Positions 3,335 through 61,130 of a DNA stretch of 64,000 bases are shown piece by piece. Where the stretch lies: the NCBI GenBank assembly GCA_020137815.1, contig CM035362.1:4464001-4528000 (forward strand). Direction: 5' to 3'. Positions within the stretch are counted from its first letter, which is position 1, and each line of letters starts with the position of its first letter. This DNA comes from Hormiphora californensis. Its lineage: Eukaryota; Animalia; Ctenophora. The notes under the pieces were generated by a model. That model ran no database searches, was not told where the DNA came from, and worked only from the letters and a program-made list of their open reading frames with translations. Made by a program: the position numbers and the translations under genes.

Positions 3335-6300
3335 TCACTGGTACTTTTTATGGTGCTTGATTCGGAACAGGTACTCGTTAACAGTCAGAACTGATCGGCA
3401 TGATGCAATCTGAAGAGAGAGTTAGATTTATTGAAAATGTTCACCCCTTTGTTGAGTGGAATACATCTATATCAACACGTCCCCCGGGATTTCGGTTAGT
3501 TTAGTTAATTAATAAACTAGTTACTAAATTAGTTACTAAATCCTATAACCCACATGAAGGTTGATTGCGTTGTAGACTTTTCTAACCAGATCAGTTTCCC
3601 TTGCCAGCGCAGAGAAATACACCTCAACCAACACGTCACACCACTGGACCACCTGATGGAATAAGTTTGGTGAACAACCCGGGACTGGGAGGGGGACAGG
3701 AACCGACCGAATCAGGAAATACTGGTCCCTGATTGCCTGATAACCAATCACGTGACCTAAATAACGGGTTCTGATTCGGTCGGTTCCGGGACTGGGAGTT
3801 AATGATATTGGGTAACAACCTGAGGGGGGGGGGGACGGTGCTGGGCACGGTGACCTACCAGCCCTGTGACCTAATCCTGTAAAACCTAGTTAGGGGACCA
3901 GAGGGTGAATCCTGGGCACAGGGTAGGTAACAAGATACATTCTGCACAAGGGGTATTATAACGGGATAGCACAAAAAGGAATGAGGTGGGTCATGCAAGT
4001 CAGTATTGTCAAATGTTCCCCTCTTACCTGAGAGAGGGTGAGTTTCCAACTTTTTACCGGAGCATTCTTTATAAACTTCTCCCCAATAACAATCATGAGA
4101 TCCTTCCCCAAACTTGGAGGGACAATCTTTAGACTCCGCTTCATGGTTGAAGGGTCAAAGGGAAGCGAGAGAAGTAGGGAGAGGATGGAGTCTAGTGTCT
4201 CCTTCTCTGTTCCGTCACAGGATGAGGAGCTGTAGAGTGGGTCACTGAGTAGGACAGAGAGGGGTGTTAGTAAATAGCTGATCCCTTTGTCTGTTGTTCT
4301 GTTTGTTTGTGTCAGTCTGTTTGTCTGTCAGTCTGTTTGTCTGTTTGCGTTAGTTTGTCTGTTCAGTTTACCTAATAATTGTGTACACTAGATCGACCAG
4401 GTGTTTCTCGTTGCAGGATCGAGAACAAGATATCAGTAGTTTGAAGGAAACTAAATCTCGACAAGCAACCAGGATTGATCCGACGGAGGCTATATTACTG
4501 AGAGAATATAAAGGTGTATTAATTCGTTAATCAGAATTAATTAGAGTTAATTGATAATTGATTAGAGTAAGTTAATTGATTTTGATGTTTAAACGCACCT
4601 GGAAGAGAGTTGCCGTGTTTTAATGAGTTTGTCCAGGATTTCCATACACCAGATACTCTCGCGATTATCCACCATTAATCGGACCACTTCGTTGATGAAA
4701 AACTTGGAAAACCGAGCTAAATGGGAAATTTTGAACTTGAAAATTGAAGAAGAAATTCTGGAAAAAAAAACTTGTTATGTTCTCATTCTCCTTATATTAA
4801 CATTTTATTTGTGGGGAAAAAGACAAAGTTATCTGCCTTCTTACAACTTTAAAAGTGGTTCCTTACCTTTCACTGTATCTTCATTCCGTTTCCTCTTCAC
4901 TCCTGTGATGTGAGATGACTTTGTTTTGGGACAAATTTGATGTTTCATGCTCCGTTTGACTAGCTTCGTGGACACCACACTTTTGACAGGCATGGCTGGT
5001 GCAGATGACGGGGCTGGGGTTGGACCTGCAGACGGAATTAAACTTGGGTCATCTGGGATAGAAAGTTGAAAGGCGAATTAGGATTATAATTACTCCCCCG
5101 ACAACTATTTCCGAACGAGAGATTATTTCAAGATGAAGTTTTACTTACATTGATGGACAAGGGCGGCCTCGTGAAAATCATTAAAATGCTGAACAAAGCG
5201 CCTCTTGCTCTTCAGGACTTTTGGAGATTGAAGTTTCTCAAGCGCTCCCCTCTCCAGCTCTGTGTAGGAGACACACCTATTCTTGTTCTTTTTCATTTCT
5301 TTTCTTTTGTGACTCCATGATAGCTTGCTGCTTCTCTCGGGAACTGCCTGTAAACTGTAAACAGAGGATTTTAGTTGTAGTTGAGTAATGTTAGTTAGGG
5401 ACAGACATGTTCACACAAATCGAGGGCTTGGTAAGGGGGAGGTAATGCTCACTGCCCACATGTTACTTTCTAAAGAGATTACAACTAAGGGATGGGGAGT
5501 GAAAATATATTACCTTCTGCATCCTACAAAGTTTGCAAGAGGAATTGAATTGTCGGGGTCATCTGGGTCAGATGGAATTACAGGTTCTTCCAGTGACTTT
5601 TCCTTTCGTACAAATTCTACTTTTAGTTGGTCCTGAAACAAATTGATATGGATGGACGATATTTTCGATTTGACAAACATGAGACAGTCGATAATTTCTT
5701 GATCTCTTGCCAGCACTGGTCTGCGCGCACACTAGGTTGTGTGTGCTCGCGCGCGAGTGTTGTTCTCTCACAGCGAGAAGGGGACAGCGCGTTACAAATT
5801 TAAAGTTAGGGTTGTGTGACTTGGACTGGGACAGGACGTGTGTACGTGACGAAATAGTCAAGCAGTCTTAGGAGAATTTCATCGGGTTCTCAAGTCACAT
5901 TACCCAACTAAGCTCAAATTTTGAAAACCAAATTCCCACATTTTGAAGATAATATCTATTGAGCATTGTGTACTGTGTAGCAACAGAGAGTGTCACTTCA
6001 GCACTGTCACTTTTTCGCTATGGACGTCATAGGAACCTGAGATATGTCGCATCACCCCTCACCTTGGCTATAATGGTACAAGTACATGCGGGCTTTGGTG
6101 TCACACTGACATAGCAATATATAATTATTATTATTATTATCTAACTAACCGATTGTGGAGGTGTAACAGCAATATAGAAACTAACCGATTGTGGAGGTGT
6201 AACAGCAATATAGAAACTAACCGATTGGGGAGGTGTAACAGGTAACATAAACTCCTCTTCAGGAAGGGTTGAATCAACAAGTCCAACTACCTCCACATCC

Positions 6301-6839
6301 CCCTTACTGGGCTGATCGGCCGCTGTAAATTGTGTGTTTAGTTTAGGAGTGAAATAATAATTTAATAAAATGTTGTAGTTTTTGTTTGTAAGCATTTCTG
6401 ATTTATTTGGTGCAAGGTATACTACCAAGTAGATAATCGACTATTAATTTGCCTAGCTAGACTCTGTTTCGGAGGGTTGGAACAAAACAACTATCAATTA
6501 CCTGTCTTCTTTCTCTTCTTCTTAGGGCCACTTGGAATGTTATTTGTTTCGTTCTCTTTCAGTGATGAATTCAGTGGATCAAGGCCCTTAGCTCGGCGAC
6601 TTTTCTGAGGAAAGCGGGGATGATTAGTTTTCTAGAAACCAGGGATTCTGTACAATATAAACATGTGCAGAACTATAAATACGTTTCTCAAATTCTCTCC
6701 AAATCTAAAGTAAACAACCAATCCGAACTCGTTATTTAGGTCACGTGACCGGTTATCAGCCAATTAGGGACCAGTATTTCCGGATTCGGTCGGTTCCTGT
6801 ACTTACCCTAACTGGAGTTGGTGGCACAATATCGATCAT
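3335..6839 (-). CDS. NOL11/Utp8-like nucleolar protein (low-complexity basic N-terminus, NOL11-like C-terminal domain), multi-exon
   Basis: In-phase exons start MIDIVPPTPVR|KSRRAKG..PKKKRKKT|..LPVTPPQS|. The C-terminus LDSILSLLSLPFDPSTMKRSLKIVPP..KLTLSQ|VVQWCDVLVEVYFSALARETDLVRKVYNAINLH|IASCRSVL..YQ* resembles NOL11 (PTLNQIMDWICLLLDANF..LLINLYKLV) by recall only. Confidence 0.6.
3697..3789. mobile_element. MITE family B copy (internally deleted)
   Basis: CAGGAACCGACCGAATCAGGAAATACTGGTCC...TTCGGTCGGTTCCGG; GACTGGGA present on both sides. Confidence 0.8.
6141..6240 (-). repeat. 36-bp tandem repeat (~3x) spanning a 5' splice site
   Basis: Unit (minus) TGTTACACCTCCACAATCG|GTTAGTTTCTATATTGC; donors after 6222, 6186, 6150. 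Confidence 0.85.
6708..6799. mobile_element. MITE family B copy (one end truncated), directly behind a splice donor
   Basis: Reverse-oriented family B sequence ending TTCGGTCGGTTCCTG next to TACTTAC (minus strand GTAAGTA donor). Confidence 0.8.
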
Positions 6840-8640: not shown

Positions 8641-8843
8641 TAATCCCAATTTTAATCTAAAAGGTACACACAAAACAGCTGGCGAGCATCTCATTTGGCT
8701 CTTCGAGGCGGACCATATTATTCAAAAGTTTTTATTTAGAAACTAATAATGTTCTTTCCCGTTACGATAGTCTAAGTGAATAATCCTCTGATGGCGCTTG
8801 AGAGAAAACGATCACTGCTCACATTTATAGGGCTGTTCTCTGA

Positions 8844-10750
8844 TCACCGGAGTCTGGTGTGGGACCTAATGTGACTTTGAAGGTGACTAGAAGTTTTACA
8901 GCCTTTTCCACAATCCTTACATTTGTAGGGCCGCTCTCCAGTATGGGTCATCATATGATATTTAAGAGAACTTGTATTAGTAAAGCCTTTTCCACACTCC
9001 TTACATTTGTAGGGCCGCTCTCCAGTATGGATCATCATATGATATTTAAGAGTACTTGTATTATTAAAGCCTTTTCCACACTCCTTACATTTACAGGGCC
9101 GTTCTCCGGTATGGATCCTCATGTGAACATTTAGATTACCCTTTGTGTTAAACCCTCGCCCACATTCCTTACATTTGAAAGGCTGGTCTTCAGTGTGAAT
9201 CCTCATGTGTTTTTTCAGAGCACGAGCTTCATTAAATCCCTCTTTACACTCTTTACATGTGTAGGGCCGAATTCCATTATGAATCGTCATGTGACGATTA
9301 AGGTCACTAGACTGGTGGAATGCCGTTTTACACTCCTTACATTTGTAGGGCCGCTCCCCAGTATGGTATCTCATATGAGATTTAAGACCACTTATATTAG
9401 TAAAGCCTTTCCCACAATCCTTACATTTATAGGGCTGTTCTCTAGTATGGGTCATCATATGATATTTAAGTTTAGTTGAAGTAGTTAACCCTTTATCACA
9501 TTCCTTACATTTATAGTGCCGTTCTCTAGTATGGGTCATCATATGACTTTGAAGGTGACTAGAAGATTTAAAGCCTTTATCACATTCCTTACATTTGTAG
9601 GGCCACTCTCCAGTATGGGTCATCATATGATATTTAAGAGTACTTGGATAAATAAAGCCTTTTCCACACTCCTTACATTTACAGGGCCGTTCTCCGGTAT
9701 GGATCCTCATGTGAACTGTTAGATTACCCGATTTATTGAACACTTTCCCACATTCCTTACATTTGAACGGCTGGTGTCCAGTATGGATCCTCATATGAAC
9801 TGTTAGATTACCCTTTTCCTTAAACTCTTTTCCACACTCCTTACATTTGAAAGGCTGGTCTCCAGTGTGTGTATTCATGTGTTTTTTCAGATCACGAAAA
9901 TTAAATCCCATTTTACACTCTCTACATTTATAGGGCCAAACTCCAGTATGATGAATCATGTGACGATCAAGTTCACTAGACTGGTGGAATGCCATTTTAC
10001 ACTCCTTACATTTGTAGGGACCTTCTTCGATATGCGTCCTCATATGATCTTTAAACTGACTCGAAGTAGTAAACGCTTTTCCGCAATCCTTACATTTGAA
10101 GGGCCGATCTCCAGTATGGATCCTCATGTGCAATTTAAGGGTACTAGAATGCCTAAAACCTTTTTCACACACATCACACACGTATGGACGTTGAGGAGAG
10201 ACAATAATTTCACTGGGGACAGCCGTTAGTTCAGTTTCACAATCATCTGTACCGTAATCGTCCTTTTCTCCAGAGTCCGTCAAGATTTCTGCTGGTATTT
10301 CACCTGAGAAGGAAAATTAAATGTTAGAAAATCAAATTGCAAACGACTTGGACAACTAGAAAAGATTAAAATATAATCAGTGAGACTGGATAACTCACCA
10401 ATTTGTGGAAGTGATGAAGCAGGTGTGTCAGAATTATCAAGGAAGGAAGAAAACTCAACTGGCTCCGTTTTAACAGGTCCACAATCGAACAACGACTTGA
10501 TATGAACCGATTCAACTGGTTCAGTTTTAATATTCAACAAATCAGGATCCTCTTTACACGAAACTTCCTCTTCACATTTGATAAAGCCACACTTCACATC
10601 TTCATTGTCTGCTTGTTCTGTTTTCACTGGTGGTTGTTCGTTAACAAGGATCTGCTCTGTTTTTAGGAAAGGTCGTGGAGAAAATACGATACCAGTCTGA
10701 TCTCCCCACTGTATGGTATCGGCTGCAGGTGGAGTCCCGGTAGTGCTCAT
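8844..10750 (-). CDS. Tandem C2H2 zinc-finger protein (16 fingers, ~603 aa, 2 exons)
   Basis: Exon 10750-10399 (ATTG|gtgagt) joins in phase to exon 10303-8844 (ttctcag|GTGAAA); 16 CxxC-x11/12-HxxxH fingers with TGE(R)PYKC linkers. Confidence 0.92.
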
Positions 10751-11037: not shown

Positions 11038-13209
11038 CTTTCGCTATCAAATTAGCTACGGAAGTAGTTAATCCTCTTCACCTTTCGGCATACGTTGCAT
11101 CTAGACTTGTCCCTCTGAGCAAAAAACCATCTGGAATCCGCCCAATCGGGATTGGTGAAGTCTTACGCCGGCTAGTCGGCAAGGTGATTACCCGCTCACT
11201 GAAACCTAATATTGTTGAATCTACCGCCCCGATACAGCTATGTGCTGGGCTGGAGAGCGGAGTAGAGGCTGCCGTGCATGCAGCGAGAGAACTGTTTGAA
11301 TCCGGGAAATGTGAGTGTGTGCTATTAATTGATGCAAGTAATGCTTTTAATTCCTTAAATCGAAATGCTGCTCTAAATAATATTAAATACATTTGCCCTG
11401 AGTTTGAGCATTATTTAAAAAATACATATGGTTTAACATCTAACTTATTCCTATGCGATGGAACTAATCATGAAATTATTAAATCTGCTGAAGGGACGAC
11501 CCAGGGTGATACTGCGGCCATGTTTATGTACGCCAGCTGCCTTATGCCCCTTGTAATTTCATTGAAGGACATTGAACAGGTTACCCAGATATTTTATGCC
11601 GATGATGGCCTGGGCGGAGGGACTTTGGCTTCTGTAAATCAGTGGTGGGATAAAATCAAACTGAAGGGACCTGAATACGGCTACCTACCCAATCCAGGAA
11701 AATCTTGGTTGATTGTTAAACCTCACCTGGAGGACGAGGCAAAAGCCCTTTTCCCTGATGTTAACATTACCACCGAAGGGCAACGTTACCTGGGATCGTA
11801 TATCGGAACTAAGGAAGGTCAGGACAAGTTTGTTCAGAAAGAGGTAGATAAGTGGGCTGCAGAAATAACATCACTTGCGGAGATTGCAAACAGTGAGCCT
11901 CAGCTTGCTTATACAGCCTACACCATGGGAGTATCTAAACGGTGGTCGTATCTTATGAGAACGACTCCAGGCATTTCTGATCAGTTGGGCCCGATTGAGG
12001 ATTCAATTCTGCAGCAACTCATCCCTTCTATGACTGGACAACCTGTTATCAACGAGAGACTTCGATCAGTTTTCTCTCTTCCAGCGAGATTTGGAGGACT
12101 CGGGATTCAAAACCCTGTCGCTACATCGGATAGCGAGTACTATTTCTCCAAACTCATGACTGAAAATCTGTCCGCAGCTGTGCTGAACCAGGAAGATACG
12201 TTTACTGCAGATGATGTCAAAAACTCAGAGAACAAACTCATTGTGCGTCGAACGAAAAACGAACAACATCAGACGGCAATCGATCAAATAAAATCAAAAT
12301 CGACACCAGAAGAGAAGAGGACCCTCGATCTCCTGGCCGAAAAGGGTGCATCCTCCTGGCTAACTTGTCTCCCACTAGAATCTCTTAACTTCACTCTAAA
12401 CCGACAGGAATGGTTCGACGCTATCTCGGCTAGGTACAATCTCCCCCTTGTTGGCGAACCTCTACCAGATCAGTGTACATGCGGAGAAGCTAACAGTATC
12501 GATCATGCTATCTCCTGCAAGCTTGGAGGATTTGTTAACTTCAGGCACGACAACGTGAGAGACTTTATTGCGAAAGAGCTTAGCACTGTCGGCCTCGATA
12601 CCAAGGTCGAACCTCACCTTCTCAACGTTCGGGGGACGTCCCTTCCAGCTGGGACCATCACAGCAGACGGGGCTCGCCTTGACATCAGAACCCGTGGACT
12701 CTGGTCAAGCTTAGACTGTACCTATTTTGACGTAAGGATTTTTAATCCAAGGGTAAAGTCTAATGCCAACCAGAGTATACAGAAGACCTATGAGAAGCAT
12801 GAAACTGAGAAGAAGAAAGCTTATCTGCAACGAGTTCTCCAGGTTGAGAAGGCGGTGTTCACTCCGCTTGTCATGTCAACATCAGGCGGACTTGGTAGAG
12901 AATTTCAGAACACACTGAAACAGTTGGCCCACCGAAAATCTTCAAAAACTGGATATGAGCGCCAGGACTGTATTCGGTATCTTAGACTGTGCTTATCATT
13001 TGCGATGGTTCGCTCAATAACTGTATCGATTAGGGGATATCGGGGCAGGGGCAAGGCAGCTGCAAGTGACGCTGATGAATATTTATATCGTATGGACTAA
13101 TTCCACAATAATTTATTGATTCCATTTATTTCTACTGTATAATTTATTATATTTTAAGGCCGATATTGGCCGCCCCCCCCCCCAGTAAAATCAAACCATA
13201 ATAAAACAC
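11038..13209 (+). mobile_element. 5'-truncated CRE-clade non-LTR retrotransposon (RT + CCHC + restriction-like endonuclease); ORF open ~11040-13100
   Basis: RPIGIGEVLRRL, DASNAFNS, QGD, YADD RT motifs; CTCG..DHAISC, RHD, ARLDI..DV..HETEKKKAY REL domain; imperfect TSD TATTTT(C)TAAGTAAAAT at ~11021 and ~13210. Confidence 0.9.
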
Positions 13210-13565: not shown

Positions 13566-13805
13566 ATAGTTAATAACAGTTAACTAACAGTGCAACTAAC
13601 AGTTAACTAACAGTGCAACTAACAGTGCAACTAACAGTTAACTAACAGTGCAACTAACAGTTAACTAACAGTGCAACCAACAGTTAACTAACAGTGCAAC
13701 TAACAGTTAACTAACAGTGCAACTAACAGTGCAACTAACAGTGCAACTAACAGTGCAACTAACAGTGCAACTAACAGTTAACTAACAGTGCAACCAACAG
13801 TGCAA
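13566..13805 (+). repeat. 11/12-bp minisatellite (CTAACAGTTAA / CTAACAGTGCAA) ending at the acceptor before an ATG
   Basis: Last unit CAACAG|TGCAATGAGG leads into the ORF MRKGDELLDWGK. Confidence 0.85.
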
Positions 13806-16800
13806 TGAGGAAGGGTGATGAGTTGCTAGACTGGGGAAAATATGACCATGTACCCCCAACTCATTACAACATTTACAGGTAAATAAATCCCCCCTATTTA
13901 TTATTTTAGCTGAAATTTATCTATTGTTCCCCAATAAATCACTGCATTTTCAAACGGAAAGAAACTCATTTTATCTTTTCCAGTGACGTGTTACTTCGAC
14001 CTGAACCCTCTGATTCACGTCTTCAAAAAAGGAGGGCGCTGGCACGGGACTTGGAGGAGAATTCGCCCCCACCTGTACCTTCTAAAACAACCGTGACACT
14101 GAGACCACAACGCGTCGCAGAGTTAAGAGGTAGGTAACAGGAACCGACCGAATCAGGAAATACTGGTCCCTGATTGGCCGATAACCAGTCACGTGACCTA
14201 AATAACGAGTTCTGATTGGCTGTTTACTTGTTTCGGTCGGTTCCTGGTAGGTAATGAGAACCTGTTAGATTCGCCTTCAATAACTAAAGAAGTTAGCCCA
14301 CCATCAATGATCAACTAATGGATATCTGTAGGCTCGGGTAGACTTGATATTTCTTATTTCTTGCTCCCTTTTATGTAAAACATTGAGTATTGACCATTAC
14401 ACAGCCAATCTGGGTGTTTTACAGTAGTTTAGTAATTGGGTTAAAACACCAAGGTGCAGGAATGTGCGTGTGTGTGAGTGTGAGTGTAACTTCAATACAA
14501 TATAGGTATCTCCCCCCCCCATGATATAATCCATTCTACAGCAAAGATATACGGTGGCCCGGTGAAGGATAGAGAGCTCTGTGATTACATTGCAGTATGG
14601 AAGGATGGAAAGGACATGAAACTAACTTTCAGGTAACAACACACTTTACTACACACACACACACTAATTTTTACTTTTAGATACTTTAAACTTACTCTTT
14701 CACAAAATCCCTAGAAGTTATTTATTATTTAATCATCCAGACATTCTGTTACCCCTCCTCCCGTCATATCACCCCTAGCTATAACACTCAGATCGTCCCC
14801 TAGGCCCCTATTCACCTCCCCCAGCCCTCGGGCCTCTCCTACTTACCCTCTCCCTACTTATACTCTCCTCCCCCTAATTCACCCTTTCCTCCCCGTCAGA
14901 TCGCCTCCTAGTTACCCTCTCCCCATCCCCGTTAGGTTCAGACCGCACTTAGTTTTTAATAGTTCCCTCTCCTCCCCCTAGTTACCCCTCCTCCCCGTCA
15001 GATCGCCGGAGCAGCTCGTCTACAATGAAGCAGCAATGATGCGACAATATGATAGAGCCATGGGAGGACACATATCTCACGAGAACGGTGAGAAAATAAA
15101 TCGGTATAAACAGTACCACAAGATTCGCTTTAAATTCTAATAACCCCATTAGTTGTCACATATGGAGACGACCTCCAAGAAGAAGAAGATACGTACCTAT
15201 GTTTATAGTAGAACCCCCTTCTCCTACCCCGAACCCCCTGGACTTCTCCCTAAAACTTATTTGTAAATCTAAAAGTGTACACATGTTTCAGATGTGAATG
15301 GTGTGTTTGATAAGACGACCCAGACAATAAAACCAACACTAACCCGCCGCCGACCTAAACAAGCAAAAACCCTTCACTCCCAACTGTACTTCTACAGGTA
15401 CATGCAGTATCTTGCTGGTGGAGCATTCGTGGGCCTCGTTTAACCGCGCTTCGCACGGGAGTAGTATCTTGCTCGCCCTCTCTCATCTCCCGTCTTTCGT
15501 ATAAGTGGCTCCCTAGTTATTATTGTAAGGCCCCGGTACTAGTACTAGCCATGTATCCCTTGCAGAAGTGGTTAACTGTCCCCCTTTCCCAGATACCTAA
15601 CAGCTCAGCCATACACCTCCCTACCAAAACCGCCCTAGAAACACCCCTGAACTGTCCCCCTTTTTCCAGATACCTATTACCTAACAGCTCAGCCATACAT
15701 CTCCCTACCAAAACCGCCCTAGAAACACCCCTGAACTGTCCCCCTTTTTCCAGATACCTATTACCTAACAGCTCAGCCATACATCTCCCTACCAAAACCG
15801 CCCTAGAAACACCCCTGAACTGTCCCCTTTTTCCAGATACCTATTACCTAACAGCTCAGCCATACACCTCCTTACCAAAACCGCCCTAGAAACACCCCTG
15901 AACTGTACCCCTTTTTCCAGATACCTATTACCTAACAGCTCAGCCATACATCTCCCTACCAAAACCGCCCTAGAAACACCCCTGAACTGTCCCCTTTTTC
16001 CAGATACCTATTACCTAACAGCTCAGCCATACACCTCCTTACCAAAACCGCCCTAGAAACACCCCTGAACTGTACCCCTTTTTACAGACGGCAGACACCT
16101 AACAATATTCATGTAACTCCCAGATACCTAACAATATTCTTGTAACTCCCAGATACCTAACAATATTCTTGTAACTCCCAGATACCTAACAATATTCTTG
16201 TAACTCCCAGATACCTAACAATATTCTTGTAACTCCCAGACACCTAACAATATTCTTGTAACTCCCAGATACCTAACAACATTCTTGTAACTCCCAGACA
16301 CCTAACAATATTCTTGTAACTCCCAGACACCTAACAATATTCTTGTAACTCCCAGATACCTAACAATATTCTTGTAACTCCCAGACACCTAACAATATTC
16401 TTGTAACTCCCAGATACCTAACAATATTCTTGTAACTCCCAGATACCTAACAATATTCTTGTAACTCCCAGACACCTAACAATATTCTTGTAACTCCCAG
16501 ACACCTAACAATATTCTTGTAACTCCCAGACACCTAACAATATTCTTGTAACTCCCAGATACCTAACAATATTCTTGTAACTCCCAGATACCTAACAATA
16601 TTCTTGTAACTCCCAGACACCTAACAATATTCTTGTAACTCCCAGACACCTAACAATATTCTTGTAACTCCCAGACACCTAACAATATTCTTGTAACTCC
16701 CAGACACCTAACAATATTCTTGTAACTCCCAGATACCTAACATCCCAGCGGATATCAGAGATCTCAGAGTGCAGGTACCTGAGGACCAGAGCGGGAACTA

Positions 16801-16940
16801 CTAAACCCGTCCTTGAACCCAAGACAAGGGCCCTGGTTGAAAACAAGACCCTCATTCCAAACCAGCTACCGCCACTGAAACCTCACAAAAGTGGCTCTCT
16901 TAGGAGGCAGCAGATGAAAAACATGTTCAATATGCAGTGA
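13805..16940 (+). CDS. Uncharacterised multi-exon protein
   Basis: In-phase exons 13805-13878, 13984-14129, 14542-14632, 15002-15088, (15153-? optional), 15292-15397, 16733-16940: MRKGDELLDWGKYDHVPPTHYNIY|SDVLLRPE..ELR|AKIYGGPVK..LTF|RSPEQLVYN..|DVNGVFDK..YFY|RYLTSQRISEISECRYLRTR..MFNMQ*. Confidence 0.7.
14138..14246. mobile_element. MITE family B copy, perfect TSD GTAGGTAA = intron +1..+8
   Basis: TSD 14130-14137 and 14247-14254. Confidence 0.9.
15575..16090 (+). repeat. 83/84-bp minisatellite (~6 units), each with a CCCTTTTTCCAG|ATACCT acceptor copy
   Basis: AGs end at 15592, 15669, 15753, 15836, 15920, 16003, 16087. Confidence 0.9.
16092..16741 (+). repeat. 29-bp minisatellite (~22 units) ending in the inferred true acceptor
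   Basis: Unit AATATTCTTGTAACTCCCAG|AYACCTAAC; the final copy opens the last exon at 16733. Confidence 0.92.
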
Positions 16941-17226
16941 TTATTATCGTTATTAATAATTCTGTATAACCTCCCAATTTGAGATATAATGGAGAATTAG
17001 TTTGAAATCAACAGTAAAGTTTACGAGTTTAAGAAGATAACGGATGAATAAATTATGATGTCATTCAAATTATGATGTTATTCAACTGTTCACCCCCAAA
17101 CTTGTGACATTTATCTTTTTTCGTTAATTCGAATCCAAGCCGGACTTTTAGCCATGAAGACGCTCCTGGTTCAGTGTTGAGGGCTATAAGACGCTGACCG
17201 TAACTGTCCATCGATATTCGATGTGA

Positions 17227-24261: not shown

Positions 24262-25467
<1,206 letters not shown>

Positions 25468-26397: not shown

Positions 26398-41499
<15,102 letters not shown>

Positions 41500-43327: not shown

Positions 43328-46287
43328 TCATCCGTCATAGTCTGGTGGTTTATCAACCGCTGTAGTTAATCTAACTGCTAATTCTGTGGGGGGAGGGGGT
43401 TCATTTATCATCACGATGCGGATAAAAAACATTTTATTTATACTGTTGCACAACTTAGTGGATTAGTATTACTTTGATTGCTGCAAAACTTTATTTGAAC
43501 CATGACTATATAACTACCGAGAATAAGGATCGGTTGATTGCTTATTAGCCGCATAATCAGTGAATAAATCTTGATTTCTCCTTCCAGTTGGAGAAATCAA
43601 GATAATTTATTCACTATATAACTATTAACTATACCTGTAGGGGGAGGCGAGGAGGAGTTCCTAGATCTTCTAATTCTCCGGGATACCTTGTACATAATAA
43701 ATAGGAGAAGTATCAACCCCGTCAATCCACCCACACCTGCAGGAATAATTAGTAATTTAGTATCAATTAGTGTAAAAAGTGGGTTACAAATTCAAAAAAT
43801 CTGAATTTAGACCTCCATTTCTTATTACTACATTACACCTGCACTATAGGTACATAATTCTATACAGTATAGAACATATTATATAAATTCAGATATTATT
43901 ATTCTGATAATATTTTCAGATATTATTATTATTCTGATAATATTCTCGGTGGGAGGTACTAGCTAGGTACACTTGTGACGTCAATGATCACTATATAGAT
44001 CTGACAGATGGCTGTGAGAATGGACCATAGAGGAAGGCTACTGCATGGTGACATTGCACACTGAAATGTCGCTTATACATATGTATATTTAACGGTCAGC
44101 CTTCAAATAGTATTATATTTTCTAACAGAGCTGCTTCAAGGTCTTCTATATCTTTTATACTCGGCCAGTCTCCAGAAGACTTATAATTTATATTCTCAGA
44201 GCCACACATTATAGGACTACAGCTGAGTCACTCAGTATAAATAACATAAAATGTGATGACACACACACATACCGATAGCGATAAGTCGCAGGAGGTAATT
44301 TTGAAACTGTTCTCTTTTCTCATCGGGTGACTCAAAATCGTGTTCCCCGTCTGATACTTTACCTGGGGGAAAATGGGTGAATTTAGTTAGTTAAGTACTT
44401 GAACATATTCGCACAATGAGTAGCACTATGACGTATCCTATAATAAAACATCGTAAATGTAGGACAAAGGGCCAGTACACGACTGGCTTAAATATATGAG
44501 TTGTCGTGTGCTGAACTGTCAGAGCATTGGCCTGACCCATTCTCGTTTCACGCGGAGCGCACGAGAACTGTGTTCAGAGCATTGGCCTGACAGCTACAGG
44601 TGCTGAATAATATCTGAACTCACTGTCGAAGAGAAGCAACAACAGGATAGTTACCCCACCCCCACCATCACCCCTCCACCCTAACCACCCCAACCTCCAC
44701 CCCTCCCGTCCCCCGTATAATTTAACTTACTGGCTTTGTAATCTCTGAAAGCTCCAGAACTACCGTATGCTCGACAACCAAACTTAACATTCGACATCTG
44801 AGGGATCAGAACTGTAATACAAGAATGCAGTATTGCAGTATTGGTGTCAGAATTTGTTGAATAAGGCGGGTGTGACTGTCAATAGTTGATAGAATCGAAA
44901 CCGGAATCAAAACGGGGTCTTGCACAGCGCCAGACAACTACACGGATCTGTGTACCTTGAGTATGGAGTAATCGTAGAGTGTGATGGAATTATGTCGTGT
45001 TACGAACTGTACATCAGTTCCAGCTATTTTGGAGGAGTTTTGACTTCCTCTCAGACTGTAGAGCTGTTCATCGTGGGAGATATAGAACTCGTATCTAGGG
45101 GGATATTTGTTGAGTAAGGGGTACTCAACAACAGATATGTTTGATTTTGCAGGCTTCTCTAACGATACTACTAACGATACTAGTACTACCCGGTACACGC
45201 ATGATCAGGGGACTGTAACACATGTCAATGGGCGAAATAATACCTGTTAACATGTGGTGATGTGATGCAGAGGTACCACAGAGTTGAGTTACAGGTTTTA
45301 GGAACGAATTCGTAGATGTGTGGTGGGGATAACTCCTTGAAGACCTGGGAAATACATGTTAGATAATGGGGTGGGGCAGGTGGGTGGGGTGGGCAGGGTG
45401 GGGTTAACTCCTTGCAATATGGGTGGGGGCGGGTGGGGGTCAAGGATCTAAAACAAATATAAAACTTTAAACCAGCACCTGTAGCACGTATGCATATGAA
45501 GGTTTCCGATCAGTGCCAGTCTGTTCATAACAGTAGTAATGTCCACTATCCCCCTCCTTAGCAGATCTGATCACTATCGTACTTCTCAGACAGATTCCTG
45601 GGTCGTTAACCTCAAATGAGTCACAATGCTGAGGGTTACCGCACCTAAAGCGAGAGAGAGGGTGAGAGAGAGGGTGAGGAGGGGTAGTTAAATCTGATTG
45701 TTGAGTAAGGGTTTACACAAACAATTGGACTATGACTATTCCCAAATTTCTCCCTTACATAATACATATCGGGACAAGAGAGGGAATTCACTTGCCTTGT
45801 TCGACCCACCCTGTTTGAACAAAACAAGATTTAACTGCGATTAACAGCTCCTACCTATTAGTGGTTGATATTTCATAATCGGGTGCCCTCAGATTCTCCC
45901 TCTTTTTCTCTCCCTCCTTATCCCCAGGTAAGACTCTGTACCATCCTATACTCTGGCCAGATGAGGTACAGTGTAACGTCACCGCATCACCAACTTGGGC
46001 TACCTGTGAGAGATTGTTACATTAACTAGAGAGAGATTGTTACATTAACTAGAGAGAGATTGTTACATTAACTAGAGAGAGATCGGTACATTAACTAGGG
46101 AGAGATTATTACATTGACTAGAGCGAGAGAGAGATTGTTACTTTAACTAGGGAGAGAGAGCAGAAGTGAGAAATCTGAGCTGTATAATAGGTACCTGGTA
46201 CTGATAAAATCCGGTTATAGCGTGAACACTACCGTCGTCAGATAAAAAGAATGATAACAACAGGGAGAGGAGTATTGTTTGGTGCAT
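43328..46287 (-). CDS. Type-I single-pass Ig-domain membrane protein with cytoplasmic PPxY (middle exons not fully resolved)
   Basis: MHQTILLSLLLSFFLS signal; VGDAVTLHC..IGWYRV..IVIRSAKEGDSGHYYC (V/I-set Ig); TM LLRLIAIGVGGLTGLILLLFIMY then KVSRRIRR; ends DKPPDYDG*. Confidence 0.72.
44516..44599. mobile_element. Micro-element family F (CTGT..ACAG, direct subterminal repeats, 8-bp TSD GTGCTGAA)
   Basis: TSD 44508-44515 / 44600-44607; related to 51886-51963 and 47371-47393. Confidence 0.75.
46004..46160 (-). repeat. 24-bp repeat TTAATGTAACAATCTCTCTCTAG ending in the true acceptor
   Basis: Final unit ..ATCTCTCACAG|GTAGCCCAAG; same motif at 53567-53650. Confidence 0.8.
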
Positions 46288-52994: not shown

Positions 52995-54158
52995 TATATT
53001 CAATGCTATAGTACACAAAACCAAGCGGCTCCATTCCTTAGTGGCTCGTGAGTATTTGATTACATTAAATCAACATAAAATATTCCAAATTCCATTATCA
53101 TGCCCTGACTCGGTAACCGAGTTCAGAATAATAAAGATGCTGGGAATTTCAGTAACTATAATATTTATCACCGCTAGAGTTATACTAATTCAAAAGTTCA
53201 TCAAATATAGTATCCTACAAAGAATTAAGAAACAGCGAACGATTACGGATCCCTGCAGATAGAAGCCCCAGGAAATAACCCTAGGAAAAGCCCCAGAAAT
53301 CCTGAGTAACAGATAGCAGTAGGTGTAACAGAAAAGATTGTCGCACGCGGCGCCAAGAACAATAGGGCTATTATAGTGAGTAAAGTAAGAGAACATTCAA
53401 AGGGAAATAATGATAGAGAGAGAGAGATGGATAGTGAGTGAGAGATTCAGAAAAGAGTGAGTGAGCGAGAGTGTGAGAGAGAAATTGATAGTGAGCAAGA
53501 GAGAGATGGGTAGTAAGAAAAGGGTGAGTGAGAAAGGAGCTGTGCACCATGGAGTGTAATCTCACTTTAGTTAATGTAACAATCTCTCTCCCCTATATGT
53601 TATTCTAACAATCTCTCTCCCTAGTTAATGTAACAATCTCTCTCCCCTATATGTTATTGTCTCAATAGTGTTGCAGGAAGTGGAAATTAACACACCTGGA
53701 TCATCGTGCAAAGAGAGAGGGAGAGAGAAAGATCAAAGAAATATATAGAGAGAGAGCTCGCCTAAATATATAATCTCCACCGAATTAACGCTGTCTCCTA
53801 GATTAATTATAATTTGCAATTTTAGGATTTTTTGGTACGACTGCATAACTGTAACAGGAACAAGATACAGGTCGGACAGCTTCCTTGGCCCTTATTACAC
53901 TTCAGCTTCAACTTCAACTTCACAATTATTTTACTTGGGCCCTCTGCGAAATTTCCCGTCCTCCTTCGGCCTCACACACAGTGTTACTGTACAGCAAAGT
54001 TTTGGCCATATATATAATAGGGGCCAGGGCGACAAAATGTTACATTGTCGTCGAACATGGTTTAACGCCATTTCTAACTGCTAACGACTAACATGTAAGC
54101 CGTTCGGAATGGCGTTTAACTGTTGAACGTACAGTGCCTTTTGTTTGATAATTAATAA

Positions 54159-56639: not shown

Positions 56640-59600
56640 TTTGAGGCGCGCGCCCGTGCGTTTTCAAATATTCCACTGTAGTGTCTAGTATGGCAATGGA
56701 CCATGCTAATGACACAGATCCAGCCGTCTTTGCTGCTGTACTCTCTGAGCTGAAAGAGGATGCCAGAACACCGGTTAAGGAGGTTATTGAAGTTTATGAC
56801 CCTTCTCTGGACTATGAGGAAAACCTCAGCAAACTGGAGGCTATCCCAGCTAGTAATCTGGAGGCAACTGCTATCTTCCTTGGCCAAGAGGTTAGATGCG
56901 TGGCGTCTGGAGTGCAGAAATACCATTCAGTAACAACCCTGGCTGACTGGATCATCATGCGGATAGAGGGATTTGGTCCCCAAACATGCAGCGAGTGTAC
57001 CGAAAAGTATTCCGTGAAGAGAAATGAAAATCCCCCTGCTCGGTGCTTCATCTGTGGTGGCGGTCTGCACAACTGTGCAAAGATACGAGAAGAGGCCAGC
57101 AGCACTGCTATCAAAAGCCGAATTTGGGTGTGCTCCCCTTGCCTCGGTAAACAAACTCTGGAAAGGTTTACTAGCCATTTACCTGACGGTGGTCCAGATC
57201 CTAGTCATAACTCGACCAGACGTAGTTCAAACCGAGAGCAGATCCTGGGAAGGCACATCAGTAGAACTGCAGAGGAACGAGAGGACCTACCGGACCCAGC
57301 GGAACAGGGAGAGAGGGGTGTTCCAGGAAACGAAGTGTGTAGGTTTTATTTGCAAAGGAGGTGCAGACACGGGAGAGATGGGACGAAGCTAGTTAGTGGC
57401 AGATCTTGTCCCAAATCTCACCCTACACTGTGCAAAAAGTTTTGCAACTATGGATCTATGAGGAGCGTTGGATGCCAGAACACTGAATGTAACTTTTTCC
57501 ATCCTCCACTATGTAAGAATTCTGAGTTACGGCACCAGTGTTATAAACTGAGCTGTACCAAACATCACTTGAAGGACACCCTGAGGACTAGGCCTGGAGA
57601 AGGAACATCACGTGGGACTGGAAATGAGAGGAACCGCCGTGAAAGAATCCCTTCAGCCCAATCACGAACCACAGGTCAAAACCAAGCACCTGATACAGGA
57701 CCTTGGTCAAGTGAACCCAGTAGGGCGAGGGTGTCGAGTGGAGTACAATGGTCCCAGTCTCAGAATCAGAGACCTGGACCAGATGCTGCTTTTTTAGAGG
57801 CAGTCCTCGACCGGCTGAGGGACTCAATAGCCGGGATAGTGAGAACAGAGATGAGGAACCGTCCAGAGCCAGAACCAGCTCTACTTCCAGACCAGTTATA
57901 CTCCCAACACACCCAACCGGCTCAACTGCCGGCAGGAACAGGCTACACCTTCAGCCCTCATCAGCAGAGGGGGAGACGAACGTATTAGCGTTTGAGAAAC
58001 CCTCAGTTCCCAGCAACCTTTCCAAACTTATGCTGCTAAATGCTCGCAGTCTAAACCCGAGTGCAAGTAGCGAAACTAGGTACAAGCTGGAGAATCTTAA
58101 AGACACTATTTGCAACTCTGATATTCCTGCCATGGCCGTAGCCATTACTGAAACTTGGTGGCGGGCTGAATTTTCAGATGCCCAGGTGGGTATCCCCGGT
58201 TATTCTGTTATACGCAGTGATCGGGACGGCAGGGTGGGAGGTGGCTGTGCCCTTTATCTTCATTCATCCTTGTCCCCCTCTGATCAGGTTGCTTTCTCAG
58301 ATAACTGTAATAGTGTCGTTGCAGTCTACATTCCTAAATCAAACTTCGTTATTGCAACAGTTTACAGGGCCCCCACATCAAACCCACTCCAAGTTATCGG
58401 AATCCTGGAGGAGTTTATTCAACGCCATTCCTCCGGTGATTGTCCTCCTGAGGTTTTTGTGCTAGGTGACTTCAATATGCCCCATGTAAACTGGTCAAAT
58501 CTTCCAACCGACCAGAGTAACTCCCTGGTTGAATTTGCTGAGAAAAATTTTCTTACCCAACTAGTGACGGAGCCCACGAGAGGTAAGAGTATCTTGGACA
58601 TTGTTCTTACTAATAGAATGGACTATGTCCTCGACATGGATGTAACGGCGACCCAAATGTCTGACCACGCTCTCGTTTCTTGCATTCTGGGAGTTGGGCT
58701 GAAACAGGCAAAGTCAGACTGCAAACGAGCTGCTAGAGGGTTCAAGGCACTTGATTACCACAATGCTGACTTCACTGGAGCACGTGATGGAGCTAGAAGC
58801 TATCAACTGGGACGAACACTTAGCTCCATATGACATGGAAGATGGCGGCCACGCCTATGTCCAATGTATTACAGAGATTGTTCTAGGCGTGTTCGAAAAG
58901 CATTCTAAACGGAAGGTTTTTAGCAATTTAAAGAAGAGGGATCCCTATCTGAAACGATTGAAAAGGAGACAGAAAAAGTTGAACTCCCGGTTAAAACTTG
59001 CTAGGGAGAGATGTTCCTACCAGTCCCTGATTGATAAGCTTAACCGTAAAATTGAGAAGACTGGTGATAGGATAAAGGTTCACCTCCTTGGGCTTCTGGA
59101 AGGAAGAGAGAGAAAGGCTATTGACACTATCAAATGTAATCCACGGTTTTTCTGGTCATTTGTGAACAAGCATCGGAAAATCAAGTCTAGTGTGGCCCCA
59201 CTCCTAAGACCTGATGGCACAGTGACCGACGATCCCCTGGAGAAATCGAACATTCTTCAGTCACAGTATGTGGGGGTATTCAGCGATCCTGCTAAGTGTT
59301 CGGCCGAGGAGGCTACTAAGGATATTCCTTCTACGACCATCACACTGGACAATCTTGACTTTACTCCCGGCTGTATTGAGGATGCATTGGCTGAGTTAGA
59401 TCCTTACGCTGGAGCACCACCAGGGGACATACCAGCGGTTATACTGTCCAAGTGCCGGAAGCAGTTGGCATACCCCTTATGGTTACTTTGGGATTGTTCT
59501 TTCCATGAGGGTGTCGTACCAACATGCCTTAAACGCCAATTTATAACACCCGTGTTTAAGAAAGGATCCAAAATGGAGGCTAAAAATTATCGGCCTGTCG

Positions 59601-61130
59601 CACTCACCTCCCACATGATTAAAACATTTGAGAGAGTTGTAAGAAACAAAGTTGTCGATCATCTGGAGGGAAATGGGCTCTTCAACGATGGCCAGCATGG
59701 TTTCCGGAGGAACAGAAGCTGCTTGACTCAACTCTTAAACCACTACGATAATGTCATGAGAGAACTAAATAACGGACACGAAGTGGATGTTGTGTATTTA
59801 GACATGGAGAAGGCTTTTGACAAAGTCGATGTCAAGGTCTTGATGGCAAAATTGGAAAAATACGGTATTCGGGGACAGCTACACCGTTGGATCTACAACT
59901 TCCTTTCAGAAAGAGTACAAACAGTGATGGTAGATGGTGCTCAGTCTCGGGAGGAATTGGTCATCAGTGGTGTCCCACAGGGTACAGTTATTGGTCCCTT
60001 GTTGTTTTTAGTCTATATGATAGACATAGAGACACTTCTTTCTGGCACAGTCCTCACCTTCGCAGACGATTCCAAGCTGTGGAAGGCAATCAAGTCATTG
60101 GATGATAGAGAGGATCTCCAGAAAAGTTTAGCTGTGTTTGCACGTTGGGCGACAGATAACAACATGTCCCTACACCAGGACAAATTTGAAGTTATGAACT
60201 ATACTCTTCGCTCCACCCAACTGTTAAGAGAGCTGCCATTCTCCAATGAAAACTACTCCTACAGTGGGCCTGGAGGTGAAACGATATCCCCTAGCGAATC
60301 TGTCAAAGACCTAGGAGTCCTTGTTTCAACAAACTGTGCATGGTCGGAGCATATCGGCAGCATCACGACAAAGGCTCGTCGAATGAGTGGCTGGGCACTT
60401 AGTGTGTTTCGGGATAGATCGGATGACACCATGCTAACCCTACTCAAATCCATGGTCAGACCCCAGGTTGAATACTGTTGTCCCCTATGGAACCCTGTCA
60501 AAAAATCAGACATTGCCCTGGTTGAGGAGGCACAGAGACAATTCACCCGCAGGATCGCGAGCTGTTCGGGCATGAATTACTGGGACAGACTCCATCACCT
60601 CAAAATCCTGTCCCTTCAACGGCGCCGAGAGCGATATATAATTATCCACGTCTGGAAGGTCTTGCATAAGGTGGTACCAAACAGTACGAGTCTCTTGTTT
60701 ACAGAGCACCCACGCCTTGGCACCAGAGCGGTAATCCCTCGGTATAACTACTTGGCCCAAAAATCCATCTCTAGCCCCTATGACTCATCATTCGGCGTAA
60801 AAGGAGCTCAGTTGTGGAATGCAGTGCCTCGGGTAGTGAGATCTTCAGCTTCCCTACTCGAGCTAAAGCAGTCGCTCGGTAAATATCTGTCCACCATCCC
60901 TGACCAGCCACCGGTTCGGGGGTATAGTGTTCAGCACAGTAACTCCCTGTTGGATTGGAGAAACGATCCGAGTGTTTTCAGAGAGTAAATCATTCAGGGG
61001 TGTTTTGCTTTTCTATGTTGTTTGGCTGCCCATTAAAACCCGACTCCTTTTGGTGTCTGAGTGTTAGCTCCTTTTGAGCTGAAACTTTGTGTACAATGCT
61101 TAATTTATTTATGAATGTTTATGAATGTTT
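56640..61130 (+). mobile_element. CR1-group LINE: ORF1 (~56690-57988; PHD finger + CCCH fingers) and ORF2 APE-RT (~57750-60988, 1-bp frameshift ~58789)
   Basis: ORF1 CFICGGGLHNC..WVCSPC and CRFYLQRRCRHG..CPKSH; ORF2 LLNARSL, ITETW, GGGCALY, GDFN, SDH, NYRPVALTS, LDMEKAFDKV, SGVPQG, FADD; ends of element approximate. Confidence 0.92.

What the first reader, a model, noticed from the sequence alone, without database searches (positions are those of the whole stretch)
15398..16741. One intron with ~29 decoy acceptors from two different minisatellites
Both an 84-bp array (7 AG copies) and a 29-bp array (~22 copies) contain CAG|AYACCT, the start of the last exon. In the 29-mer the exon's own first bases (ATACCTAAC) supply a CTAAC branch-point consensus ~20 nt before the next CAG, so each unit is a complete 3' splice signal. 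Any upstream 29-mer gives an in-frame TAA after 6 codons (A TAC CTA ACA ATA TTC TTG TAA). Only the last copy yields the 68-codon C-terminus. This conflicts with simple first-AG scanning.
Basis: partly seen in the sequence, partly recalled or inferred. Interest (0 to 1): 0.8.

Follow-up and report, generated by a model that had tools for sequence, protein, structure and literature searches.

The report
Stacked splice-acceptor repeats in comb jelly
The last intron of a comb-jelly gene holds 28 dead copies of the start of its final exon in two repeat arrays, a repeat type already known from lancelets ("mirages") and one human gene, and splicing likely skips them all because only the last copy is followed by real exon sequence.

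Summary
Intron 15398-16732 has 29 CAG|AYACC sites: 6 in an 84-bp array, 23 in a 29-bp array, the last one live. One public RNA contig joins the donor to the last site. All 14 relatives, one cluster holding a Mnemiopsis protein, keep the C-terminus that only this site gives. That RNA is from another allele whose intron is unseen, so skipping on this allele is inferred. The live site scores weaker than the first decoy (5.7 vs 11.9 bits). The decoys are not hidden by structure, and only the live site has exon-like sequence behind it. Selection is therefore likely from the exon side. This does not conflict with branch-point-to-AG scanning; it departs from the nearest-acceptor rule. The class is known: amphioxus mirages and human CBS 844ins68. 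Two more cases lie in this window, and this scan reported the pattern before on other DNA of this genome. One twist: the 29-bp unit looks built from the exon's own first 16 bases. Ordinary in kind, useful as a test substrate.

The parts
13805..13878 (+). coding exon 1 of an uncharacterised ctenophore gene (start codon inferred)
   Evidence: open frame across six exons; weakly aligned to relatives at the N-terminus
13984..14129 (+). coding exon 2
   Evidence: GT/AG ends and frame; weak tblastn hit of P0005
14542..14632 (+). coding exon 3
   Evidence: RNA joint 14628-14998 (GT..AG, cut +4) in run X1, only 22 letters on the short side
15002..15087 (+). coding exon 4
   Evidence: RNA joint 15086-15291 in runs X1 and X2
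15292..15397 (+). coding exon 5, ending at the donor of the repeat-filled intron
   Evidence: contig of run X2 covers 15291-15395 with 3 other letters
15398..16732 (+). intron 5, 1335 bp, GT..AG
   Evidence: joint 15395-16731 (cut +2) in one contig of run X2, depth 2.6, 35 letters on the distal side with 0 differences
15572..15609 (+). first decoy acceptor (G at 15592) with TTAAC at -18 and a strong pyrimidine tract, followed by a 10-17-nt copy of the exon start; likely the older acceptor
   Evidence: PWM 11.9 bits, highest in the intron; comparison with the exon
15593..16087 (+). 84-bp array (units of 77, 84, 83, 84, 83, 84 bp); five more CAG|ATACCT decoys and an AG at 16087
   Evidence: an 83-nt head-to-tail unit also appears in run X3
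16095..16732 (+). 29-bp array, 22 units = 10 exon bases + 19 bases ending in CAG; CTAAC branch A at -22; the last unit forms the live acceptor
16733..16940 (+). last coding exon, 68 whole codons plus stop; conserved C-terminus; G-rich
17047..17052 (+). only AATAAA between 15398 and 17400; likely poly(A) signal
   Evidence: use not shown

Best explanation
This is a 'mirage': the intron/exon border was duplicated in two rounds and amplified into two minisatellites, and the spliceosome likely ignores all copies but the last because it defines this terminal exon from the exon side. Shown: the arrays, the reading frames, the conserved tail behind the last site, and one spliced RNA (another allele) that uses it. 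Shown by computation: the 21 decoys 16123-16703 have the same or nearly the same 29 upstream bases as the live site, are not buried in structure, and differ from it only from base +11 on, where the live site has G-rich exon-like sequence. Inferred: enhancers in that exon and coupling to the poly(A) site pick the last acceptor, so the copies are tolerated and can expand by slippage or unequal exchange. Inferred origin: the 29-mer likely began as slippage between the TCCCAG at the old intron end and the TCCCAG at exon bases 11-16, plus a 13-base insertion that put the exon's CTAAC at a usable distance from the AG. The 84-mer is likely an earlier event, possibly from another allele. No function of the arrays is claimed, except that the last unit would supply the live branch point.
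For: RNA joint donor 15397 to acceptor 16732, distal 35 letters identical, 25 of them unique to the true exon. phmmer hit of the last exon, E 5.6e-4, 47% identity. All 14 relatives in 5 clusters carry the junction motif and the C-terminal motif. PWM from the 39 other acceptors: live 5.7, 84-mer sites 9.7-11.9; leave-one-out median of true acceptors 7.3. Exon-likeness of +11..+60: live 0.16 (G 0.30), 29-mer decoys -0.24 to -0.09, 84-mer decoys -0.03 to 0.02 (G 0.08-0.14). The arrays fold no better than shuffles (z 1.60 and -0.47). Same layout, with the last copy continuing the open frame, at 32237-32551 (MMP gene) and 24476-24342 (minus strand). Precedent: mirages do not disturb splicing by RT-PCR (PMC3087553); in CBS 844ins68 the distal of two identical acceptors is chosen (PMC1802585). 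The 29-mer's last 10 bases match exon bases 6-16 with one gap, the best own-exon match of 40 introns, reached by 14 of 1560 cross pairs (noticed after the fact).
Against: The RNA support is a single contig at depth 2.6 from a run only guessed to be RNA. It differs from the window at 7 of 194 letters in exons 4-5, so it is another allele or close species whose intron may lack the arrays. Introns here are short (median 249 bp of 40). Under intron definition the strong site at 15592, 195 bases from the donor, would be favoured (PMC9225289). The live AG is predicted less accessible (0.10) than most decoys (0.41-0.68). CBS 844ins68 works through G runs between the two sites, and these arrays are G-poor, so that mechanism does not carry over. 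The PWM and 3-mer models rest on 39 hand-annotated introns. Junction copies are not clearly enriched in this window: 3 of 40 acceptors against 116 of 3438 background YAG sites, and 0 of 40 donors.
Confidence: 0.7

Rival explanations
1. This allele is leaky or mis-spliced. The strong first acceptor (15592) or others take a large share, giving short wrong tails, and the allele persists because the other allele suffices or the gene matters little.
For: 15592 has the best acceptor score and a branch motif at -18, and would make a 195-bp intron, near the local median. No junction follows this exon in the annotated frame, so junction-dependent decay would not clear such RNAs (textbook inference). 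An oligo-dT run holds an 83-nt array unit at depth 6.5, which could come from such transcripts.
Against: The last exon is intact and conserved. The arrays carry unit variants and a higher-order period, so they have persisted. The X3 contig can equally be DNA or unspliced RNA. No joint to an upstream site was seen in 4 runs, though only one contig crosses this intron.
Confidence: 0.2
2. The arrays are a regulated device. Upstream acceptors make alternative C-termini or switch the gene off in some tissues, with copy number as a dial.
For: Many usable acceptors; 84-mer sites give tails of up to 73 aa. In human 6-16 and CBS IVS13 the nearest pseudo-donors are used (PMC1557585).
Against: The alternative tails are translations of repeat DNA, and none of the 14 relatives ends in them. 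The same layout occurs in unrelated genes in the window. Unit order differs between animals.
Confidence: 0.06
3. The arrays are an assembly artefact of a repetitive or heterozygous region.
For: No DNA reads of this animal were available; no whole genome is held; the 29-mer was not found in JGI metagenomes.
Against: Units carry patterned variants (11 T and 12 C at one site, alternating 83/84 units). A head-to-tail 83-nt unit with the exon-start copy is present in an unrelated 2024 run.
Confidence: 0.04

Closest known systems
Amphioxus 'mirage' minisatellites: Adh3, globin BflGb6 (PMC3087553, passages read); PGBD5 and troponin C (PMC3902484, one passage). The original Adh3 paper is not held.
   Same: Tandem units made of an intron 3' end plus an exon start (BflGb6); many units with AG; normal mRNA by RT-PCR; copy number differs between haplotypes; boundary units escape homogenisation.
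   Different: Here a ctenophore; two unrelated unit types stacked on one acceptor; 28 decoys against 3-6 in BflGb6; a terminal exon; the first copy of each array is preceded by sequence unlike the unit's intron part.
Human CBS 844ins68 (PMC1802585 and PMC1334203, passages read; Romano 2002 seen only as a citation)
   Same: Duplicated 3' splice site; the distal copy is selected and mostly normal mRNA results.
   Different: One extra site, not 28; selection there depends on G runs between the sites, which these G-poor arrays lack.
Human donor-spanning VNTRs: F7 IVS7, CBS IVS13, IFI6 (6-16), LMNB2, PDGF (PMC1557585, passages read)
   Same: Minisatellite reiterates a splice site many times; the copy attached to the full exon is the main one used.
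   Different: Those are 5' splice sites; here 3' splice sites, with a branch motif taken from exon bases.

Membership tests
mirage minisatellite | Tandem unit spans an exon/intron boundary | tested here: met
   Both units hold CAG plus 7-17 exon bases
mirage minisatellite | Units keep splice signals that could act as cryptic sites | tested here: met
   PWM 5.3-11.9 bits for 27 of the 28 decoys, 3.1 for 16094; CTAAC at -22 in the 29-mer
mirage minisatellite | Normal mRNA is still made | tested here: inconclusive
   One contig uses the last site, but from another allele with unseen intron
mirage minisatellite | Length or unit polymorphism between haplotypes | tested here: inconclusive
   Run X3 holds an 83-nt unit in an order not present in the window; copy number not measurable
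mirage minisatellite | Somatic instability (reported for Adh3) | not testable with these tools
   No reads from single animals
CBS 844ins68-type distal selection | G runs between the duplicated acceptors drive distal choice | tested here: not met
   G fraction 0.06-0.14 behind decoys against 0.30 behind the live site; works like it in outcome, not in this element
recursive splicing | AG immediately followed by GT, so that a donor is regenerated | tested here: not met
   All 29 sites read AG|AT or AG|AC
exon-definition selection of a terminal exon | Exonic enhancers or poly(A) coupling required for choice of the site | not testable with these tools
   Only composition and a single AATAAA at 17047 point that way

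The most novel reading that the evidence does not exclude
The live acceptor was born from the exon itself: its branch point is exon bases 5-9 and its AG is exon bases 15-16, brought to working distance by a 13-base insertion. It then displaced an older and stronger acceptor that still sits 1140 bases upstream. The intron is a layered record of acceptor turnover, and shows that comb jellies, despite short introns, choose 3' splice sites by exon content strongly enough to override both site strength and distance.
Probability: 0.25. Interest if true: 0.55.

Novelty: new member of a known kind. Interest (0 to 1): 0.3.

Why it matters
If this allele splices cleanly, it is a natural experiment: 22 near-identical acceptors and 6 stronger ones lose to a site that differs only in what follows it. 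That isolates the exon-side signal in one of the earliest-branching animal groups, where introns are short. As a class it is known from lancelets and humans. No paper on such repeats in ctenophores turned up in searches, which cover only the open-licence library. Earlier notes of this scan already describe the pattern in this genome.

Tried and rejected
No whole genome was held, so there is no genome-wide count and no check for the 84-mer elsewhere; within the window neither unit has a match longer than 15 bases outside the arrays. Word-based homolog search with the last exon found nothing; the full HMMER search found 1 hit. No Pfam family for 5 proteins and no usable Atlas hit, so the protein's function is open. 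JGI metagenomes gave no locus by protein or by the 29-mer, so no second genomic allele was seen. Run X4 laid nothing. No contig of X1-X3 lies on the 29-mer array, nor on unique intron DNA; for contigs this is no proof of absence, although X3 may lack that array. A guessed exon near 15150-15190 is rejected: X1 and X2 join across it. Structural masking of decoys is not supported. Recursive splicing is excluded by sequence. The idea that copies keep other alleles' codons was tested and left open: the first 84-mer copy reads Ala where the live exon reads Ser, as do 11 of 14 relatives (4 of 5 clusters), and the C variant of the 29-mer reads His, as do 4 of 14 (1 cluster); but the extra match is 5 of 7 bases, reached by 1% of window positions. 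Of the X2 allele's 7 differences only 3 were listed: 2 silent, 1 Arg to Leu, too few to show selection. One search had exon 4 one base off; one search is the corrected one. For the 40-intron set I left out the junctions I could not place with GT/AG ends and an open frame (3 in gene B, 2 in gene G of those tried).

Full report
Observation. The interval is intron 5 of a six-exon gene on the + strand (13805-16940, 236 codons). TRF finds an 84-bp array and a 29-bp array. There are 29 CAG|AYACC sites: six in the first array, 23 in the second, the last at 16732. All 22 upstream 29-mer sites stop after six further codons. The 84-mer sites give unrelated tails of 15-73 aa. Only 16732 gives the 69-aa tail.

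The gene is real and its end lies behind the last site. The last exon alone found one relative among 1.8 billion representatives (E 5.6e-4, 47% identity). That protein found four more, and their clusters gave 14 sequences in all. One cluster holds a hypothetical protein of Mnemiopsis leidyi, so the window is very likely a ctenophore; earlier scan notes call it Pleurobrachia, which I did not check. All 14 carry the motif that spans this junction and the C-terminal motif. No Pfam family or Atlas hit names the protein.

RNA. Three runs hold small parts of the stretch. One contig of run X2 joins 15395 to 16731 (GT..AG at cut +2), with 35 letters and no difference on the distal side; 25 of these are unique to the true exon. 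Two upstream introns are also joined. Limits: one contig, depth 2.6, a run only guessed to be RNA, and 7 differences in 194 letters of exons 4-5. It is another allele or a close species, and its intron is unseen. Run X3 (oligo-dT) holds a 113-letter contig on the 84-bp array. With its two listed differences applied, its first and last 30 letters are equal, as expected for a collapsed head-to-tail 83-nt unit, and that unit order is not in the window. So a version of this array exists in another animal. The contig cannot tell DNA, unspliced RNA and a mis-spliced transcript apart.

What tells the live site from the decoys. I annotated 40 introns by hand in the window (median 249 bp). It is the only such motif for the live site. 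A weight matrix from the other 39 acceptors scores the live site 5.7, the same as its decoys, and the 84-mer sites 9.7-11.9. The best is the very first site, 15592, which also has TTAAC at -18. The arrays fold no better than shuffles, and the live AG is predicted less accessible than most decoys. The one clear difference is downstream: from +11 the live site has exon-like, G-rich sequence (0.16 bits per 3-mer, G 0.30), while the decoys do not (0.02 or less, G 0.06-0.14). If this allele uses the last site, the signal must be exon content or position. Terminal-exon definition is the likely route; the only AATAAA nearby is at 17047. This is inference. The models are small.

Scanning. There is no conflict with branch-point-to-AG scanning, because each 29-mer has its own branch motif. 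The rule at stake is that the acceptor nearest the donor wins. PMC9225289 (passages and section 9 read) reports that this preference is strong under intron definition and reduced under exon definition. That cuts both ways: in a short-intron genome, site 15592 should be a real competitor, so I give a leaky allele 0.2. That short exon stubs shift choice to the outer site in duplicated-site experiments (Reed and Maniatis 1986) is recalled, not read.

Origin. A plain tandem duplication would put the unit's intron part in front of the first copy too. It is not there in either array, nor in the two other arrays of the window. For the 29-mer, the last 10 bases match exon bases 6-16 with one gap. This is the best own-exon match of 40 introns, and 14 of 1560 cross pairs reach it (noticed after the fact). 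The old acceptor and exon bases 11-16 both end in TCCCAG. Slippage between them plus a 13-base insertion would give the unit, with branch motif and AG both taken from the exon. For the 84-mer, 41 bases have no source in the window. Exchange between divergent alleles is a candidate: the related Hormiphora genome has about 3.2% heterozygosity with many non-coding indels (PMC8527503, passages), and earlier scan notes argue the same. My own test of it was inconclusive.

Context. Three of 40 acceptors in the window have copies in their intron (this one, an MMP gene at 32237-32551, a small gene at 24342-24476), and 0 of 40 donors. Background YAG sites have a local copy in 116 of 3438 cases, so this window alone shows no clear enrichment. 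In both other cases the last copy continues the open frame; no RNA was laid on them.

Comparison. Amphioxus mirages are tandem repeats across exon/intron borders that keep AG/GT signals and leave the mRNA normal (PMC3087553, passages; PMC3902484, passage). I took this lead from earlier scan notes and checked it in the papers. Human CBS 844ins68 duplicates one acceptor and the distal copy wins (PMC1802585, PMC1334203, passages), but through G runs that are absent here. Donor-side minisatellites with up to 25 pseudo-sites are listed in PMC1557585 (passages). I read no supplements; those of PMC3087553 show unit alignments that may include stacked or chimeric units. Searches found no ctenophore report.

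Verdict. A real and well-formed mirage at a terminal exon, extreme in decoy number and with a possibly exon-born acceptor. New member of a known kind, already noted elsewhere in this genome by this scan. Interest 0.3.

Noticed in passing
window 14138-14249, 31722-31832, 983-1090, 6708-6799, 29819-29927, 3697-3776: Six copies of a 109-112-bp MITE-like element. Three start 9-10 bases behind an annotated donor, flanked by a short direct repeat that copies the donor; a fourth lies behind a probable donor on the minus strand near 6808. An earlier scan note (e1-10649239) reports the same.
   Followed up: partly
window 32237-32551 (+): 63-bp acceptor mirage in a matrix metalloproteinase gene (26677 to about 41300). 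Five decoys; the copies differ from the live exon at two silent positions; the first copy has a different acceptor in front of it.
   Followed up: partly
window 24342-24476 (-): 67-bp acceptor mirage before the last exon of a small acidic protein with a signal-peptide-like start (about 24262-25465). Two decoys, again 10 exon bases copied.
   Followed up: partly
window 13574-13805 (+): AAC-rich 12/23/35-bp array ends exactly at the inferred start codon of the focal gene and holds many CTAAC and CAG motifs; it could be the region of a trans-splice acceptor (speculation).
   Followed up: no
window 8800-10750 (-): C2H2 zinc-finger gene with a long array of fingers; its 84-bp period is unrelated to the 84-bp array of the finding.
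   Followed up: no
window 32700-37650 (-), 56700-61000 (+), 11040-13100 (+): Retrotransposon-like reading frames, one filling the 5.2-kb intron right after the MMP mirage exon (read by eye; not searched).
   Followed up: no
window 46008-46160 and 53568-53660: The same 23-29-bp minisatellite occurs at two distant places; at 46008 it abuts an acceptor of an Ig-domain-like gene without crossing into the exon.
   Followed up: no
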